From UHGV virus genome UHGV-1343746: a stretch of 64,000 nucleotides of DNA; one strand, 5' to 3'. Below, one piece after another: positions 40,186 through 45,351 of this stretch; the first letter of the stretch is position 1; every line of letters starts with the position of its first letter. A program made the position numbers and the translations under genes. The notes under the pieces are model-generated. The model made no database searches. It saw nothing but the letters and a program-made list of their open reading frames with translations, and was not told the origin of the DNA. Source of the stretch: a virus.

Positions 40186-40261
40186 TGGAGTATCGGAAGG
40201 GACTCGAACCCTCATAAACCTGTTTTGCAGACAGGCACATAACCATTTCTGACACCGACAC
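40186..40261 (-). tRNA. tRNA-Cys(GCA)
   Basis: manual fold: sense T-loop TTCGAGT, anticodon loop CTGCAAA, 7-bp acceptor stem, CCA encoded. Confidence 0.7.
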
Positions 40262-40267
40262 ATAATT

Positions 40268-40360
40268 TGGAGGAAGATACCAGACTTGAACTGGTACGCC
40301 GATTTCTCGGTTACTGGCAGTTTAGCAAACTGCTCCCTTACCTTTTAGGGTTAATCTTCC
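40268..40360 (-). tRNA. tRNA-Ser(GCU), long variable arm
   Basis: T-loop TTCAAGT; anticodon loop TTGCTAA; ~93 nt with variable-arm hairpin. Confidence 0.7.
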
Positions 40361-40361
40361 A

Positions 40362-41096
40362 TTATTTGTTCAGAGCTTCTTTCATCTCTGGAGTTGCGAT
40401 AGTATCAATCACACCAGTTTTACATGAATCATCAAACCAGCTTGGTAGAACATTCGCAAGGAAACCATTAATATTTGTTTTCAGGTATTCTGCAATCAGT
40501 GCTGCTTCATCTGCAATCATCTGAGTTACTTCATTAGCATATGCAGTAATCTTTGCAATACCCTCATTAATCGCTGTAACGGCCTGTGTAGCGAGTTCAG
40601 AGATTGTATCTAGTCCTTGGTCGATTGCATCTTGCAAATCGCTTAGAACGCTATTTACAGCGTCTATGGAGGTATTAATCAAATCCATCGCTTTATTACC
40701 GTACTCGGTAGCTACGCCCATGATACCGCTAAACGGTGTACATCCAACCTGTTCACCTGCTGCTCCCATAACGTTAGAGTAACCTTTAGCTACTTGCATA
40801 CGTTGTGAAAACTCATCTACAGACTTTTGTCCATACTCAGTGAGTGTACTTGTCGTTGAAGTTGTACTTCCAAGGCTTGTTGTGAAGCTTCCTAATAAGG
40901 CTGTTGTCAGTCCAGCAGCAACTAAAATCTGTTGTGTGGCTGGGTCTGTTACAGAACTAATTGAGTTAACTAATGATTGAGAGGCAGCTATAGTACCACC
41001 AAGAACTGCTGCACCAGTAATAAGAGGGTTTGAAAAACCATTACCAGTTTTAAGGAGATTAAAAATCTCTTTACTTTGTTCTGTCATCTCTTTCAT
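40362..41096 (-). CDS. Ala/Ser/Thr-rich protein with hydrophobic segments, embedded in tRNA cluster
   Basis: track ORF trimmed to ATG at 41096 because the listed N-terminus overlaps tRNA-Phe. Confidence 0.45.
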   Translation of the reverse strand: MKEMTEQSKEIFNLLKTGNGFSNPLITGAAVLGGTIAASQSLVNSISSVTDPATQQILVAAGLTTALLGSFTTSLGSTTSTTSTLTEYGQKSVDEFSQRMQVAKGYSNVMGAAGEQVGCTPFSGIMGVATEYGNKAMDLINTSIDAVNSVLSDLQDAIDQGLDTISELATQAVTAINEGIAKITAYANEVTQMIADEAALIAEYLKTNINGFLANVLPSWFDDSCKTGVIDTIATPEMKEALNK

Positions 41097-41114
41097 TATG
41101 CACCTATAAAGTTG

Positions 41115-41189
41115 GTAGCCCATCGGGATTTGAACCCTGTTCTCATGTTTTTCAGACACGCGCTTTAACCATATAAGCTAATTGAGCTA
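41115..41189 (-). tRNA. tRNA-Phe(GAA)
   Basis: T-loop TTCAAAT; anticodon loop CTGAAAA; acceptor TAGCTCA/TGGGCTA. Confidence 0.65.
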
Positions 41190-41195
41190 TTAAAT

Positions 41196-41272
41196 TGGGG
41201 TGACCTACGGGAATCGAACCCGTATAGACCATGTTCACAGCATGGGTCATTATCCATTTATGATAAGGCCAC
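41196..41272 (-). tRNA. tRNA-His(GUG)
   Basis: T-loop TTCGATT; anticodon loop CTGTGAA; CCA encoded. Confidence 0.7.
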
Positions 41273-41303
41273 ATTTAAGGACTCTCGTAAGAACCCTTAG
41301 AAG

Positions 41304-41379
41304 TGGCAGCAGTATAAGGATTTGAACCTTAATCTTTCAGCTTCAGAGGCTGGAGCATTGCCAGTTATGCTATACTGCT
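41304..41379 (-). tRNA. tRNA-Gln(CUG)
   Basis: T-loop TTCAAAT; anticodon loop CTCTGAA. Confidence 0.65.
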
Positions 41380-41385
41380 AATATT

Positions 41386-41456
41386 TGGTACTCCATATCG
41401 GATTCGAACCGATACATAACACAGATTTTAAATCTGGCCTCTCTGCCAATTGGAGT
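41386..41456 (-). tRNA. atypical tRNA-like gene, candidate anticodon UAA
   Basis: good T-arm and 6/7 acceptor stem, but only ~68 nt without CCA; anticodon region is palindrome CAGATTTTAAATCTG; truncated D-arm. Confidence 0.4.
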
Positions 41457-41466
41457 AATGGAGCAT

Positions 41467-41541
41467 TGGCGGGGGATGATGGAATTGAACCATCTTCTTC
41501 GATTTCAAAGACCGAGGTTTTAACCTTGTAAACTAATCCCC
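41467..41541 (-). tRNA. tRNA-Gln(UUG)
   Basis: T-loop TTCAATT; anticodon loop CTTTGAA; positions 1-72 mismatched. Confidence 0.6.
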
Positions 41542-41550
41542 TATTAAATT

Positions 41551-41627
41551 TGGTGCAGAATAGAGGATTCGAACCCCTAACAAACAACTTCGTAGATTGC
41601 TGTTCTATCCATTTGAACTAATTCTGC
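41551..41627 (-). tRNA. tRNA-Arg(ACG)
   Basis: T-loop TTCGAAT; anticodon loop CTACGAA; perfect acceptor stem. Confidence 0.7.
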
Positions 41628-41628
41628 A

Positions 41629-41871
41629 TTATCCGATAAGGACACCATAAAGTTTTAACTCTTCATTAGTGTCTCTTCTGCTTAAGACTGACTCTCTAAA
41701 ATCTTTAGCAATATTCTTTCGAGATTCCTGTCTAGCTTTCTTCTTATCTCTTCTGAGAAAGCGTCTACGATGGTCTGTACGCCACTTGTAGTAATCTTCT
41801 TCACCATCGTGAGAAGCGCAGCAGCCACAACTTGCAATTTCAACTTTACCATGTCTACCATAAGGCTTCAT
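41629..41871 (-). CDS. small basic Cys-containing protein embedded in tRNA cluster
   Basis: 80 aa, Arg/Lys-rich with CGCC...H cluster. Confidence 0.4.
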   Translation of the reverse strand: MKPYGRHGKVEIASCGCCASHDGEEDYYKWRTDHRRRFLRRDKKKARQESRKNIAKDFRESVLSRRDTNEELKLYGVLIG

Positions 41872-41887
41872 AGGAATCTCCTAAAAT

Positions 41888-41965
41888 TGGTGTTCCAAGA
41901 CGGATTCGAACCGTCACTAATACAAGGTTTGAGCTTGCATCCTCTACCAATTGGGATACTGGAAC
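41888..41965 (-). tRNA. tRNA with anticodon CAA (Leu-type) but short variable arm
   Basis: T-loop TTCGAAT; anticodon loop CTCAAAC; ~75 nt without CCA. Confidence 0.55.
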
Positions 41966-41966
41966 T

Positions 41967-44007: not shown

Positions 44008-44031
44008 AACGTGTGAAGGAATCGAACCTTC
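44008..44031 (-). pseudogene. isolated tRNA T-arm-like hairpin (tRNA fragment or mimic)
   Basis: GAAGG-TTCGATT-CCTTC on minus strand without a matching 5' acceptor strand or anticodon arm. Confidence 0.35.
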
Positions 44032-44063
44032 GCCTTTTCTTTACCAGAGAAATAGATTGTTTA

Positions 44064-44091
44064 TTGTTTGCTGTAAACGGTCTTCTGTAAA
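44064..44091 (-). repeat. conserved tRNA-spacer motif, copy 1
   Basis: TTTGCTGTAAACGGTCTTCTGTAAA (plus strand) shared with copies at 44995 and 45160. Confidence 0.5.
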
Positions 44092-44236
44092 ATTGTTGTA
44101 ACCAGACCAAGTTTTAAATTTTTCAAATTAAATTGGCTTGAAATATTAAAATTGCTTGCTGTATTTGGTCTTCTGCTCCTTTAAAGAATACTCGTAAGAA
44201 CTCTTTAAGGGAGGGGCTAAAAAGCCCTCTCAAATT

Positions 44237-44312
44237 TGGCGAGGTATGCGAGAATCGAACTCGCGGCTCAGGAGAGACAGTCCCGTATTTTGCCCATCTA
44301 AACTAATACCCC
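44237..44312 (-). tRNA. tRNA-Asp(GUC)
   Basis: T-loop TTCGATT with perfect T-stem; anticodon loop CTGTCTC (U37 unusual). Confidence 0.55.
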
Positions 44313-44318
44313 AAAAAT

Positions 44319-44747
44319 CTATGTACCATTTCTTAGGTACTTCTCTTTACGCCTTGCTGGATTGTAGTGCTTGCGTCCTTCTGCGTTTTTAGCAAGTCTG
44401 CAAGGTTCACACCTACAACCTCTTCTATAACCAGACACTGTGCCATGTTTAATTGGTGTGTATTTCCTATCACCAATCTGGGCTGGCCTAGTTGCTTTTG
44501 AGTTACATTGTATGTGGCTGTAAGATATATTGTCAAGTGAGAAGAAAAGCTCTTTTGCATTCTCTTCATGTCTCCAAGGAACTTTATGTTCTATAGAGAA
44601 ATCAACTCTGGACATTTCTTTTCCACAATGGTGACACTTATTCTGTCCAGTTTTACAAACCAAATCAAAAAGTAAATCTTTAACAAGCCTATTCTGGGCT
44701 GTTCCTAAGCTCATACCAAGTTGTGACTTGTAAACTTCATTCTTCAT
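44319..44747 (-). CDS. HNH homing endonuclease
   Basis: 142 aa; CHHCGKEM...H...HIQCN HNH core plus Cys-rich C-terminal region. Confidence 0.7.
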   Translation of the reverse strand: MKNEVYKSQLGMSLGTAQNRLVKDLLFDLVCKTGQNKCHHCGKEMSRVDFSIEHKVPWRHEENAKELFFSLDNISYSHIQCNSKATRPAQIGDRKYTPIKHGTVSGYRRGCRCEPCRLAKNAEGRKHYNPARRKEKYLRNGT

Positions 44748-44767
44748 AGTATCAACATCTTATTAAA

Positions 44768-44852
44768 ATTGGTGCGCCCATCTGGACTCGAACCAGAAAC
44801 CTCGAAAGGGACAGTTTTACAGACTGCTGCATTGACCATCTCTGCCATGAAC
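44768..44852 (-). tRNA. tRNA-Tyr(GUA), long variable arm
   Basis: T-loop TTCGAGT; anticodon loop CTGTAAA; ~85 nt. Confidence 0.65.
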
Positions 44853-44862
44853 GCATTTAAAT

Positions 44863-44938
44863 TTTGGCGGTAAGTCAGGGATTTGAACCCTGATATCGCT
44901 GATTAACAGTCAGGCGCTTTACCAAGTTAGCTAACTTA
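44863..44938 (-). tRNA. tRNA-Asn(GUU)
   Basis: T-loop TTCAAAT; anticodon loop CTGTTAA; perfect acceptor stem. Confidence 0.7.
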
Positions 44939-44994
44939 CCATGTTTAGTATTACCAGACCGTATCTTTTCATTTTTTGCCTATAAAAAAATTTT

Positions 44995-45023
44995 AAGTGT
45001 TTGCTGTAAACGGTCTTCTGTAA
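44995..45023 (-). repeat. conserved tRNA-spacer motif, copy 2
   Basis: GTTTGCTGTAAACGGTCTTCTGTAAA, preceded by ACCAGACCGTAT as in other copies. Confidence 0.5.
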
Positions 45024-45026
45024 ATT

Positions 45027-45093
45027 TGGAGGCGGGTGTAGGAGTCGAACCTACCGATACCATGCTAATGAGACATGTGAGACGCCCTTTCTC
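45027..45093 (-). tRNA. second CAU-anticodon tRNA (Met/Ile2/initiator-like, unresolved)
   Basis: T-loop TTCGACT; anticodon loop CTCATTA (U37); positions 1-72 unpaired. Confidence 0.5.
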
Positions 45094-45159
45094 TATACCC
45101 GCAATTCTTAATGACCAGACCAAATCTTTTTTGGATTTCTATGCGCGAAATTGAAAAAT

Positions 45160-45188
45160 TTGTTTGCTGTAATTGGCCTTCTGTCAAA
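45160..45188 (-). repeat. conserved tRNA-spacer motif, copy 3 (variant)
   Basis: TTTGCTGTAATTGGCCTTCTGTCAAAA. Confidence 0.45.
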
Positions 45189-45190
45189 AC

Positions 45191-45268
45191 TGGCATTCCC
45201 GAAGGGACTTGAACCCTCAAACCACACCTTGAAAGGGTGTTGACTTTACCTAATTTGTCTACGGGAAT
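45191..45268 (-). tRNA. tRNA-Glu(UUC)
   Basis: T-loop TTCAAGT; anticodon stem ACACC/GGTGT with loop CTTTCAA; perfect acceptor stem. Confidence 0.7.
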
Positions 45269-45274
45269 ATAATT

Positions 45275-45351
45275 TGGTCTCCATTGAAGGACTTGAACCT
45301 TCGGCCTTACCGCCCCAAACGGAACGCTCTACCAAGCTGAGCTAAATGGAG
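45275..45351 (-). tRNA. tRNA-Pro(UGG)
   Basis: T-loop TTCAAGT; anticodon loop TTTGGGG (G37); perfect acceptor stem. Confidence 0.65.

What the first reader, a model, noticed from the sequence alone, without database searches (positions are those of the whole stretch)
40186..45351. Cluster of about 27 tRNA genes with embedded HNH endonuclease and two protein genes
Manual folding finds 27 tRNA-like genes on the minus strand, nearly all with encoded CCA, covering Cys, Ser x2, Phe, His, Gln x2, Arg x2, Val, Thr, Gly, Ala, Lys x2, Ile, Met, Asp, Tyr, Asn, Glu, Pro, plus Leu-type anticodons, a second CAU gene and two unresolved genes. A TTGACA-18-TATAGT promoter lies upstream and two hairpins with U-runs downstream. 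The cluster is interrupted by protein genes at 40362..41096 and 41629..41871 and by an HNH endonuclease at 44319..44747. A complement this large suggests codon-usage compensation or escape from host tRNA-targeting defences.
Basis: partly seen in the sequence, partly recalled or inferred. Interest (0 to 1): 0.5.

Follow-up and report, generated by a model that had tools for sequence, protein, structure and literature searches.

The report
Phage tRNA array hiding Ro60-partner RNAs
The tRNA gene cluster is real but ordinary for a Felix O1-like phage; between the tRNAs lie four copies of an apparently undescribed small RNA that, across about 150 phage and bacterial loci, always sits beside a gene for a Ro60-like RNA-binding protein.

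Summary
Observation confirmed. ARAGORN finds 26 minus-strand tRNA genes at 40186-45351, 25 with encoded CCA. The window is a Mooglevirus (Felix O1-like phage). Close relatives carry the same 26 tRNAs, so the array itself is already known.

Four hairpin RNAs (U1-U4, 45186-43959) share 5'-AG-stem-N-UACAGCAA...stem-CUG-3'. U4 also carries a permuted tRNA-like module, as bacterial YrlA Y RNAs do.

A covariance model built from 21 units found 119 matches in 1.8 Mb around 158 homologous genes. All are on the gene's strand and most lie within about 0.5 kb of the gene. All 7 stem pairs covary. Four phage tRNA clusters without the gene had no match.

Best reading: a Ro60-like protein with Y-RNA-like partner RNAs, co-transcribed with the tRNAs. 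Binding is inferred, not shown.

The RNA signature closely matches Dictyostelium Class I RNAs. That lead is untested.

The parts
45517..46932 (-). Gene for a 471-aa Ro60-like protein (TROVE-type helical ring plus vWA/MIDAS domain); Pfam DUF2828 + DUF7788; PHROG 850 'RNA-binding protein'
45379..45408 (-). Sigma-70-type promoter TTGACA-18-TATAGT with TG extension, upstream of tRNA-Pro
   Evidence: 11 of 12 matches. This is a consensus match only.
45275..45351 (-). tRNA-Pro(UGG)
45191..45268 (-). tRNA-Glu(UUC)
45112..45186 (-). U1: short UACAGCAA stem-loop RNA (Y-RNA-like partner, short type)
   Evidence: R1 57.4 bits, E 5e-10. Fold. RF01414 19.7 bits.
45027..45103 (-). Atypical tRNA(CAU), 'Met2': conserved 1:72 mismatch, U37, 3-nt acceptor/D connector; always lies between U1 and U2 in Ounavirinae
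   Evidence: ARAGORN. No RF00005 match. Alignment of orthologues.
44951..45023 (-). U2: short UACAGCAA stem-loop RNA
   Evidence: R1 55.1 bits. Fold z -2.5. RF01414 24.9 bits.
44865..44940 (-). tRNA-Asn(GUU)
44770..44854 (-). tRNA-Tyr(GUA)
44319..44747 (-). HNH homing endonuclease, a mobile insertion between tRNA-Tyr and tRNA-Asp
   Evidence: phrog_23251, E 6e-68. Absent at this site in Sf13 and Felix O1; present in phiWec177 and BPS17W1.
44237..44312 (-). tRNA-Asp(GUC)
44101..44173 (-). U3: short UACAGCAA stem-loop RNA
   Evidence: R1 51.5 bits
43959..44090 (-). U4: long UACAGCAA RNA. Its loop holds a permuted tRNA-like module: T arm, acceptor-like hairpin closed by a loop, D-arm-like hairpin (YrlA-style).
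   Evidence: Folds. Consensus fold of 8 orthologues with 3 compensatory pairs in the acceptor hairpin. RF00005 28.8 bits on 44007-44081.
43737..43812 (-). tRNA-Lys(UUU)
43579..43655 (-). tRNA-Met(CAU), typical elongator-type acceptor
43501..43576 (-). tRNA-Ile(GAU)
43147..43223 (-). tRNA-Arg(UCU)
42899..42980 (-). tRNA-like element called by neither ARAGORN nor the Rfam tRNA model: 7-bp acceptor, T arm, and an arm with a 9-nt loop CCUCCAAAA
   Evidence: T-arm motif. Fold. Compensatory changes against Sf13.
42796..42885 (-). tRNA-Ser(UGA), no encoded CCA
42465..42542 (-). tRNA-Leu(UAG)
42382..42457 (-). tRNA-Lys(CUU)
42300..42375 (-). tRNA-Ala(UGC)
42219..42293 (-). tRNA-Gly(UCC)
42137..42212 (-). 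tRNA-Thr(UGU)
41967..42041 (-). tRNA-Val(UAC)
41888..41965 (-). tRNA-Leu(CAA)
41629..41871 (-). 80-aa basic protein of unknown function (phrog_10765)
41551..41627 (-). tRNA-Arg(ACG)
41467..41542 (-). tRNA-Gln(UUG)
41386..41464 (-). tRNA-Leu(UAA)
41304..41379 (-). tRNA-Gln(CUG)
41196..41272 (-). tRNA-His(GUG)
41113..41188 (-). tRNA-Phe(GAA)
40362..41096 (-). DUF7217 protein (phrog_2114), conserved at this position in Ounavirinae
40268..40360 (-). tRNA-Ser(GCU)
40186..40261 (-). tRNA-Cys(GCA)
40094..40153 (-). Compound hairpin followed by T6 (terminator-like)
   Evidence: Read from the sequence. The scan does not call it, because the loop exceeds 8 nt.
40005..40028 (-). Hairpin GACGGTctctgcACCGTC followed by T6 (terminator-like)

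Best explanation
The region is the tRNA gene array of a Mooglevirus (Felix O1-like myovirus). It holds 26 co-oriented tRNA genes. They are probably transcribed from the strong promoter at 45408-45379 and from internal promoters, cut out by host tRNA-processing enzymes, and terminated near 40150-40005. A mobile HNH endonuclease gene and two small conserved protein genes interrupt the array. The tRNAs supply decoding capacity for the codons favoured by this AT-rich phage.

Four non-tRNA RNAs (U1-U4) are interleaved with the first tRNAs. Each is closed by a 7-bp terminal stem with an almost invariant second pair G-C. An unpaired UACAGCAA follows directly after the 5' strand. A variable loop comes next, and an unpaired G follows the 3' strand. 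In U4 the loop is a permuted tRNA mimic.

These RNAs are the likely partner RNAs of the protein encoded directly upstream, which is a divergent Ro60-fold (TROVE ring + vWA) protein of the DUF2828/DUF7788 family. By analogy with Ro60-Y RNA particles, the stem plus UACAGCAA would be the protein-binding module. The variable or tRNA-like part would gate the ring or tether it to other factors, such as exonucleases or tRNA enzymes. The particle would then act on structured RNAs or tRNAs during infection.

Shown here: the tRNA genes; the RNA family and its covarying stem; its strict linkage in position and strand to the gene; and the Ro60-like predicted fold. Inferred: expression as discrete RNAs, physical binding, and the biological role.
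For: The tRNAs and the array architecture rest. The same array is annotated in relatives.

RNA. The four window units share the motif and the stem, with compensatory GU/AC versus AA/UU changes. TACAGCAA occurs 112 times on the gene strand and 19 times on the other strand in 1.0 Mb around homologues. Model R1 gave 68 matches around IMG/VR homologues and 51 matches in an independent set of 80 loci from prokaryotic genome assemblies. All 119 are on the gene's strand. 50 of 64 lie within 500 nt downstream or 700 nt upstream of the gene, and none lies inside it. The stem is 98% paired; 7 of 7 pairs show changes on both sides; the covariation score is 0.93, against 0.21 for shuffles and 0.20 or less for slid partners.

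The RNA follows the gene, not the tRNAs. 17 loci have the RNA but no tRNA within 6 kb. Four phage tRNA clusters without the gene (phiEa104, NINP13076, KP8, Csp-D17) have no match.

Permuted tRNA-like modules occur in the long units of the window, Felix O1 and several unrelated phages. One of them scores 39 bits against Rfam YrlA.
Against: There is no expression or binding data. The protein does not match Pfam TROVE, and no solved structure is found by sequence. The RNAs lack the Ro-binding motifs of known Y RNAs (GGUCCGA; GNCGAAN0-1G) and do not reach the Rfam YrlA threshold. About a third of the homologous loci gave no R1 match. In many bacterial loci the element lies just upstream of the start codon, which also fits a cis-acting leader. 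The covariation was counted on an alignment fitted to the model. E-values from R1 are rough.
Confidence: 0.7

Rival explanations
1. U1-U4 are only spacer hairpins of the tRNA precursor (processing signals, terminators or attenuators) and have no connection with the upstream protein.
For: They lie between tRNAs, with about 10-nt spacers. Some family members elsewhere are followed by U-runs.
Against: The same element flanks DUF2828 genes in 17 loci that have no tRNA within 6 kb. It is absent from four phage tRNA clusters that lack the gene. Terminators or processing hairpins would not be expected to keep an invariant unpaired 8-mer and 25-110-nt loops that hold tRNA-like modules.
Confidence: 0.08
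2. The element is a cis-regulatory operator. The Ro60-like protein binds the UACAGCAA stem-loop in its own mRNA leader or trailer to autoregulate, and the copies inside the tRNA array are decoys or by-products.
For: In the prokaryotic genome loci most matches lie 10-450 nt upstream of the start codon. In phi-pp2 one copy overlaps the ribosome-binding site region.
Against: In this window a promoter and two tRNA genes separate the four copies from the gene. Many loci carry 2-4 tandem copies. Long forms carry tRNA-mimic modules, as trans-acting YrlA RNAs do. This reading still requires the protein-RNA interaction, so it overlaps with the best explanation.
Confidence: 0.15
3. For the tRNA genes themselves: their main role is to replace host tRNAs that are cleaved or depleted by host defences or by phage-induced host shut-off, rather than to match codon usage.
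For: The set is near-complete: 19 amino acids, and only Trp is missing. That is more than skewed codons alone would require. The association with a Ro60-like RNA-surveillance protein hints at tRNA damage as the theme. In bacteria Rsr/YrlA sit in the RtcB RNA-repair operon (my own knowledge, and PMC4201824).
Against: Nothing in the sequence tests this. Codon usage is strongly skewed towards codons read by the phage tRNAs. The two roles are not exclusive.
Confidence: 0.3

Closest known systems
tRNA gene arrays of Felix O1-like phages (Ounavirinae: Felix O1, Shigella phage Sf13/KPS64, Citrobacter phage Moogle)
   Same: Same genes in the same order, at 94-97% nucleotide identity. Sf13 is annotated with the identical set of 26 tRNAs, flanked by the DUF2828 gene and the large terminase gene.
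   Different: The HNH gene between tRNA-Tyr and tRNA-Asp is present here but absent in Sf13 and Felix O1. None of the records annotates U1-U4. Some call U4 or Tyr 'tRNA-OTHER' or a pseudo-tRNA.
Ro60-Y RNA ribonucleoproteins (bacterial Rsr with YrlA/YrlB; Thermus phage phiLo Ro60 with Yrl1/Yrl2; mycobacteriophage Ro60/Y RNAs)
   Same: A ring-shaped TROVE + vWA protein by predicted fold. Small RNAs are encoded beside the gene on the same strand, often in several copies. The 5' and 3' ends pair. One RNA per genome carries a permuted tRNA-like module (PMC4201824; PMC12135203).
   Different: The protein is a separate sequence family (DUF2828/DUF7788, no Pfam TROVE hit). The conserved RNA element is an unpaired UACAGCAA next to a G-C-closed stem, not the bulged GGUCCGA/CGAA helix. 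It scores below Rfam YrlA's threshold. Chen et al. 2014 searched only genomes annotated as encoding a TROVE protein, which probably left out DUF2828 phages such as this one.
Dictyostelid Class I RNAs (Rfam RF01414)
   Same: A 6-bp terminal stem that starts with an invariant 5' G paired to a 3' C, followed by UG. The motif (CC)UUACAGCAA comes directly after the 5' strand. The rest is variable and A-rich. Length is 42-65 nt, and there are many copies (PMC7919456 and its supplementary sequences). RF01414 aligns end to end with U1, U2, U4 and one IMG/VR unit, and across the five searches in which this family could be reported its only matches were on units.
   Different: Scores are 17.5-26.9 bits against a gathering score of 41.5. 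The motif sits one nucleotide closer to the stem in the phage RNAs. Class I RNAs are eukaryotic transcripts with their own upstream promoter element (DUSE), and their known direct binder is the RRM protein Rnp1A. I could not establish whether Dictyostelia encode a DUF2828 protein.
Phage T4 tRNA region with stable RNAs rnaC and rnaD and the SegB homing endonuclease
   Same: A tRNA array that also encodes small stable non-tRNA RNAs, partly tRNA-like, and a homing endonuclease (T4 record annotation and sequence).
   Different: The T4 RNAs lack the stem + UACAGCAA signature, and no DUF2828 gene is annotated in the T4 stretch I examined.

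Membership tests
Phage tRNA gene array (Ounavirinae type) | Canonical tRNA genes called by independent detectors | tested here: met
   26 by ARAGORN. 24 are above the Rfam tRNA gathering score. Ser-UGA and Met2 are called only by ARAGORN here, but tRNAscan-SE annotates both in Sf13.
Phage tRNA gene array (Ounavirinae type) | Synteny with annotated arrays of relatives, between the DUF2828 gene and the large terminase gene | tested here: met
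Ro60 / TROVE protein | Helical-repeat ring followed by a vWA domain with a MIDAS motif | tested here: met
Ro60 / TROVE protein | Sequence match to Pfam TROVE (PF05731) or to solved Ro60 chains | tested here: not met
   Pfam returns only DUF2828 and DUF7788. phmmer against PDB sequences finds nothing relevant. NCBIfam finds nothing.
Ro60 / TROVE protein | Binds Y RNAs and misfolded RNAs | not testable with these tools
   Needs EMSA, RIP or a solved structure.
Bacterial/phage Y RNA (YrlA, RF02553) | Encoded within about 4 kb of the Ro60-type gene on the same strand | tested here: met
   The window units lie 0.33-1.6 kb downstream on the same strand. 119 of 119 matches elsewhere are on the gene strand.
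Bacterial/phage Y RNA (YrlA, RF02553) | 5' and 3' ends pair into a stem | tested here: met
   7-bp stem, 98% paired, all 7 pairs covary.
Bacterial/phage Y RNA (YrlA, RF02553) | Ro-binding motif GNCGAAN0-1G (bacteria) or GGUCCGA (animals) in the stem | tested here: not met
   The family consensus is AG-N5-N-U(A/U)CAGCA...N5-CU-G. The GGUCUGG of the window units is lineage-specific.
Bacterial/phage Y RNA (YrlA, RF02553) | tRNA-like module (T arm, closed acceptor, D arm) in at least one RNA per genome | tested here: met
   U4 and its orthologues. Also L010, L031, L033, L042 and L047.
Bacterial/phage Y RNA (YrlA, RF02553) | Rfam gathering score (69 bits) | tested here: not met
   No YrlA match on U1-U4. 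The best score in a related locus is 39.2 bits.
Dictyostelid Class I RNA (RF01414) | Short terminal stem with an invariant 5' G paired to a 3' C, followed by UG(U) | tested here: met
   G is 98%, C 97% and the trailing G 95% conserved in 64 distinct phage units. 29 of 34 D. discoideum RNAs have a 6-bp stem and 32 of 34 end in CUG.
Dictyostelid Class I RNA (RF01414) | 11-nt motif CCUUACAGCAA adjacent to the 5' stem strand | tested here: inconclusive
   UUACAGCAA or AUACAGCAA is present (9 or 8 of 11 positions), one nucleotide closer to the stem than in Dictyostelium.
Dictyostelid Class I RNA (RF01414) | Rfam gathering score (41.5 bits) | tested here: not met
   17.5-26.9 bits. No match on the four units of L070.
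Dictyostelid Class I RNA (RF01414) | Upstream DUSE promoter element and eukaryotic transcription | tested here: not met
   This is a phage array with a sigma-70-type promoter, so the feature does not apply.
HNH homing endonuclease | HNH nuclease profile match | tested here: met
   phrog_23251, E 6e-68, plus four other HNH PHROGs. Pfam HNH models give no hit at E 0.01.
HNH homing endonuclease | Presence/absence polymorphism at one site in otherwise collinear genomes | tested here: met
   Present here and in phiWec177, BPS17W1 and Andreotti; absent in Sf13 and Felix O1.

The most novel reading that the evidence does not exclude
The stem + UACAGCAA RNAs found here beside DUF2828 genes in phages and bacteria may be the same RNA class as the Class I RNAs of dictyostelid amoebae. 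They could be homologous, or convergent ligands of the same protein family. Class I RNAs have had no established molecular function since 2004. On this reading they would be the 'Y RNAs' of a second Ro60-like protein family (DUF2828/DUF7788), which also exists in eukaryotes; plant members appear in the literature. [quoted passage not shown] The best outgroup candidate in the published screen is an Arabidopsis sequence with the full signature (G-UUUUC-AU-UACAGCAA...GAAAAC-UG, CM score 40). By my rough estimate about 0.3 such sequences are expected by chance in that genome, so it carries little weight alone.
Probability: 0.3. Interest if true: 0.85.

Novelty: new variant of a known kind. Interest (0 to 1): 0.64.

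Why it matters
The tRNA array adds nothing new. The linked RNA-protein pair does three things.

First, it gives a large protein family of unknown function a concrete, testable ligand. The DUF2828/DUF7788 family has 8762 cluster representatives at 50% identity with E <= 0.001. It occurs in phages, in cellular bacterial loci and in eukaryotes.

Second, it extends the Ro60-Y RNA principle to a second protein family with a different RNA recognition element. That principle is a ring protein plus modular partner RNAs, some of which mimic tRNA.

Third, it places this pair inside phage tRNA and tmRNA arrays. 29 of 60 IMG/VR loci have tRNA or tmRNA genes within 6 kb, all on the gene's strand. That points to a role in tRNA or structured-RNA surveillance during infection.

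Felix O1-like phages are easy to grow and to engineer; Bas63 of the BASEL collection is one. The hypothesis can therefore be tested directly. If the Dictyostelium link holds, it would also open up the question of what Class I RNAs do.

Tried and rejected
1. I first read the window's 3' strand GGUCUGGU as the animal Ro-binding GGUCCGA. I rejected this: only C-U-G is conserved across the family.

2. I considered pairing U1's 3' strand with U2's 5' strand across tRNA-Met2, which would make a YrlA-like composite. I rejected it because the within-unit stems covary and U3/U4 abut with no tRNA between them.

3. Rfam membership failed. YrlA and Dicty_Class_I_RNA are both below threshold, and no other Rfam 15 family matches the units.

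4. A phmmer search of the protein against PDB sequences found nothing. NCBIfam found nothing.

5. The AlphaFold-database Foldseek library (afdb50) was not available. I had wanted it to find eukaryotic, and especially Dictyostelium, homologues by name.

6. Avesson et al. 2011 and Aspegren et al. 2004 are not held. DDB_G0281243 appears in only one held paper, without domain information.

7. A full-text search for the motif returned only siRNA and primer noise. Searches for DUF2828, PF11443, IPR011205 and DUF7788 returned only incidental plant and other mentions.

8. The 475-aa gene next to the tRNA array of Salmonella phage NINP13076 looked like a homologue by size and position. It is not one: no tblastn hit and no Pfam hit. 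I used that locus as a negative control instead.

9. MAFFT misaligned the 3' strands of six units. The model was therefore built from 21 well-aligned units, one of which (L060) is off by one column.

10. T4 rnaC and rnaD do not carry the signature.

Full report
**1. The observation**

ARAGORN finds 26 tRNA genes, all on the minus strand, between 40186 and 45351. Rfam's tRNA model scores 24 of them at 39-64 bits, against a gathering score of 29. Ser(UGA) matches best to the tRNA-Sec model.

The second CAU gene (45027-45103) gets no RF00005 match even when only 271 nt are searched. tRNAscan-SE nevertheless annotates its orthologue in Shigella phage Sf13.

25 of the 26 genes encode CCA. The T-arm consensus GGTTCRANTCC occurs 28 times in the cluster. 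It reveals two extra tRNA-like elements, at 44018 and 42913, that neither program calls a tRNA.

The promoter TTGACA-18-TATAGT is at 45408-45379 and is preceded by TG. One terminator-like hairpin plus T6 is at 40028-40005. A larger compound hairpin plus T6 is at 40153-40094 (read).

**2. Identity of the window**

The 6.9-kb stretch is 94-97% identical to Mooglevirus phages (Shigella phages KPS64 and Sf13-Sf19; Citrobacter phages Moogle and Mordin). It is about 85% identical to Felixounavirus phages. In all, 357 phage records match.

The RefSeq record of Sf13 annotates the same 26 tRNAs in the same order, between a DUF2828 'RNA-binding protein' gene and the large terminase gene. Felix O1 has 22 of them. 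The array is therefore a known feature of Ounavirinae.

The 142-aa ORF at 44319-44747 matches the HNH PHROG 23251 (E 6e-68). It is absent from the same site in Sf13 and Felix O1 but present in phiWec177, BPS17W1 and Andreotti. That is the behaviour expected of a homing endonuclease.

ORF 40362-41096 is a DUF7217 protein, and ORF 41629-41871 belongs to phrog_10765. Both have unknown function.

**3. Codon usage**

The window is 39% G+C. In its 25 ORFs of at least 200 aa (10,236 codons), several codons are much more frequent than in E. coli: AGA about 8-fold, ACA 4.4-fold, ACU 3.7-fold, AAG 3.2-fold and UCA 2.6-fold. The E. coli values are Kazusa figures recalled from memory. The phage carries tRNAs for these codons. 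This fits the codon-compensation reading. It does not exclude the anti-defence reading, which I could not test.

**4. What lies in the gaps**

Four gaps contain a repeated element. On the minus strand each reads 5'-ACAGA-AGACCnn-n-UACAGCAAAC ... nnGGUCU-G-GUaa-3'.

GGTCTGGT occurs 10 times in the window against 1.15 expected. The four minus-strand copies pair with the four copies of AGACCNNNTACAGCAAAC.

All four fold with the same terminal stem. The inner stem differs between copies by compensatory changes: AGACCGU/ACGGUCU, AGACCAA/UUGGUCU, and AGGCCAA/UUGGUCU with a G-U pair.

U1 (45186-45112), U2 (45023-44951) and U3 (44173-44101) are about 70 nt long. U4 (44090-43959) is about 130 nt.

The loop of U4 contains, in order:
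- a T arm, GAAGGUUCGAUUCCUUC;
- an acceptor-like hairpin closed by a loop, ACACGU-uacg-GCGUGU;
- a D-arm-like hairpin, GUGU-aauggga-GCAC.

Eight orthologues share this fold. The T and D arms are invariant, and three pairs of the acceptor hairpin show compensatory changes. This T arm, closed acceptor, D arm order is the arrangement described for the tRNA-like domain of bacterial YrlA Y RNAs (PMC4201824).

**5. The upstream gene**

ORF 45517-46932 (471 aa) matches only Pfam DUF2828 and DUF7788. It also matches PHROG 850, 'RNA-binding protein'.

An AlphaFold2 model built on 34 homologues has pLDDT 90 and pTM 0.90. The 11 best Foldseek matches in the PDB are all full-length Ro60 proteins, from Xenopus, Deinococcus Rsr and Thermus phage phiLo (E 1e-7 to 6e-6).

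So this is a Ro60-fold protein from a sequence family that is not annotated as TROVE. Chen et al. 2014 searched only genomes annotated as encoding a TROVE protein. That probably left out DUF2828 phages such as this one, though I could not check their list because no supplement is held.

**6. Linkage of the RNA to the gene**

The protein family is large. There are 2446 clusters at 90% identity with E <= 0.001 among the candidates scored. At 50% identity there are 8762 cluster representatives with E <= 0.001, and 4004 with E <= 1e-30.

In three very different phages the gene again sits in or next to a tRNA array, and intergenic hairpins carry UACAGCAA right after the 5' stem strand. The phages are Yersinia phage P778, Vibrio phage phi-pp2 and a 148-kb metagenomic phage (protein identities 44-52%). 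The stem sequences are unrelated to the window's: GGACUGU/ACAGUCC and GAAGAA/UUCUUC.

In 84 loci totalling 1.0 Mb, TACAGCAA occurs 112 times on the gene strand and 19 times on the other strand.

I built covariance model R1 from 21 short units. In the window plus 79 loci it gave 68 matches at E <= 1, all on the strand of the gene. 48 of 78 loci had at least one match. 50 of 64 matches lay within 500 nt downstream or 700 nt upstream of the gene, and none lay inside it. In the 64-kb window the only matches were U1-U4.

On the resulting alignment 98% of cells are paired and all 7 pairs show changes on both sides. 170 cells have a change on both sides, against 53 in shuffles. The covariation score is 0.93, against 0.21 for shuffles and at most 0.20 for slid partners. 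One caveat applies: that alignment was fitted to the model.

An independent set of 80 loci from prokaryotic genome assemblies (protein identity 31-42%; none used in training) gave 51 more matches. Again all are on the gene strand, and most lie just upstream of the gene.

A separate rule-based scan, not using the model, counted 94 units on the gene strand against 3 on the other in IMG/VR loci. In genome loci it counted 50 against 17.

The family consensus is A(83%) G(98%) R N4 N U(94%) W C(100%) A G(100%) C(100%) A ... N4 Y C(97%) U(78%) G(95%).

**7. The RNA follows the gene, not the tRNAs**

29 of 60 IMG/VR loci have tRNA or tmRNA genes within 6 kb, all on the gene's strand. 17 loci have an R1 match but no tRNA.

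Conversely, four phage tRNA clusters without a DUF2828 homologue have no R1 match. They are Erwinia phage phiEa104 (itself an Ounavirinae member), Salmonella phage NINP13076, Klebsiella phage KP8 and Cronobacter phage Csp-D17. All six Ounavirinae loci that have the gene gave 2-4 matches each.

In two large bacterial contigs the neighbouring genes are cellular: lysyl-tRNA synthetase, a WYL-domain protein, an M24 peptidase and a solute-binding protein. The family is therefore not confined to phages.

**8. Modularity**

Long units in unrelated loci (L010, L031, L033, L042, L047) also carry permuted tRNA-like modules. One of them scores 39 bits against Rfam YrlA, below the gathering score of 69. 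Another group (L020, L021, L023, L024, L036) shares a different module. A conserved binding element plus exchangeable modules is what is described for Y RNAs.

**9. Mechanism**

The best-supported reading has three parts.
- The array is transcribed as tRNA precursors.
- U1-U4 are released as by-products of tRNA 5' and 3' processing, because they are flanked by tRNAs with spacers of about 10 nt.
- They bind the Ro60-like protein through the G-C-closed stem and the unpaired UACAGCAA, while the loop or tRNA mimic gates or tethers the ring.

Transcription, processing, binding and function are all inferences. The gene linkage, the covariation and the predicted fold are shown.

**10. Comparison with known families**

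The RNAs are not members of Rfam YrlA. They lack the Ro-binding motif and fall below threshold.

The only Rfam family that aligns with them is Dicty_Class_I_RNA (RF01414): 24.9 bits on U2, 19.7 on U1, 17.5 on U4 and 26.9 on a unit in L064, each covering the whole model. These are below the gathering score of 41.5. However, across the five searches in which this family could be reported, its only matches were on units. The units occupy under 2% of the space searched.

The published D. discoideum sequences (PMC7919456 supplement) have these features:
- a 5' G, which opens a 6-bp terminal stem in 29 of 34;
- CAGCAA starting 10 nt from that G in 33 of 34, against 9 nt in 62 of 64 phage units;
- a 3' end of C-UG in 32 of 34.

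The architecture is thus the same to within one nucleotide.

A pull-down with DdR-21 recovered Rnp1A, GuaB, NdkC and an uncharacterised protein, DDB_G0281243 (bioRxiv 10.1101/2020.04.05.026054). I could not determine its family. I also could not establish whether Dictyostelia encode a DUF2828 protein. This remains a lead, not a finding.

**11. Novelty**

I found no paper in the held library that links Ounavirinae or DUF2828 to Ro60 or Y RNAs, or Class I RNAs to TROVE proteins. Rfam 15 has no family for the element.

The tRNA array is already known. The Ro60-like protein paired with UACAGCAA RNAs looks like an undescribed variant of the Ro60-Y RNA kind. The library excludes most subscription journals, so prior description elsewhere cannot be ruled out.

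Noticed in passing
window 45027-45103 (-): The second tRNA(CAU) is atypical. It has an unpaired 1:72 position that stays unpaired with different bases in relatives (U x C here and in Felix O1, C x C in phiWec177, A x A in Yersinia phage P778). It also has U at position 37 and a 3-nt acceptor/D connector, and gets no Rfam tRNA match. A 1:72 mismatch is the hallmark of bacterial initiator tRNA, but the three G-C pairs of the anticodon stem are missing. In Ounavirinae it always lies between U1 and U2.
   Followed up: partly
window 42899-42980 (-), with 43036-43079 (-): A tRNA-like RNA with a 7-bp acceptor stem, a T arm and an arm whose 9-nt loop reads CCUCCAAAA (like the anti-Shine-Dalgarno sequence). 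Sf13 shows compensatory changes in both arms. About 100 nt upstream lies a perfect AAGGAGG followed by a 7-codon mini-ORF (MFSRTCK).
   Followed up: partly
window 43822-43955 (-): Directly after U4 lies a very stable structure of about 135 nt, closed by an 18-bp stem (-48.5 kcal/mol, z -4.6, 0 of 200 shuffles as stable). It is a candidate further non-coding RNA.
   Followed up: no
window 41273-41303 (-) and 44185-44215 (-): Two hairpins share the central sequence GUUCUUACGAG but have different, complementary stems. There are two exact copies in the window, both inside the tRNA array.
   Followed up: no
window 42042-42136 (-) and 43656-43736 (-): Two inter-tRNA spacers fold into unusually stable hairpins (z -3.6 each). 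Neither carries the UACAGCAA signature.
   Followed up: no
window 10488-10712 (+): Two blocks of degenerate GGT-rich short repeats (ggtaaggttcggttcggttgggtgtggtatggtctggtatgg...) in a stretch with no ORF of 100 aa or more. This explains the plus-strand GGTCTGGT matches.
   Followed up: no
L042, L050, L055, L059, L064, L072, L079 (IMG/VR loci): Phage-encoded tmRNA genes lie within 6 kb of the DUF2828 gene, on the same strand, in several unrelated contigs.
   Followed up: no
L020 5272-5376, L021 147-285, L023 1261-1380, L024 3131-3238, L036 5732-5835: One subgroup of long UACAGCAA units carries, in place of a tRNA mimic, a shared module GAACCUUUCUGGAGGGGAAAGCAAAAACUCGCC.
   Followed up: no
L081 8515-8620: In one unit the terminal stem acts as the acceptor stem of an unpermuted tRNA-like fold (D arm, anticodon-like arm, T arm). 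UACAGCAA is inserted between the acceptor 5' strand and the D arm.
   Followed up: no
L175 (phage T4) 2909-3172: T4's tRNA region likewise holds two small stable RNAs of unknown function (rnaC, rnaD) and a homing endonuclease (SegB). rnaC ends in a T arm plus acceptor-like 3' half. rnaD contains AUCACAGCAG near its 3' end, but not in the stem + motif arrangement.
   Followed up: partly
L112 2900-4153: In a 2.4-Mb Christensenellales contig the DUF2828 gene lies downstream of a WYL-domain protein gene and a lysyl-tRNA synthetase gene. This is a cellular, non-phage context.
   Followed up: partly
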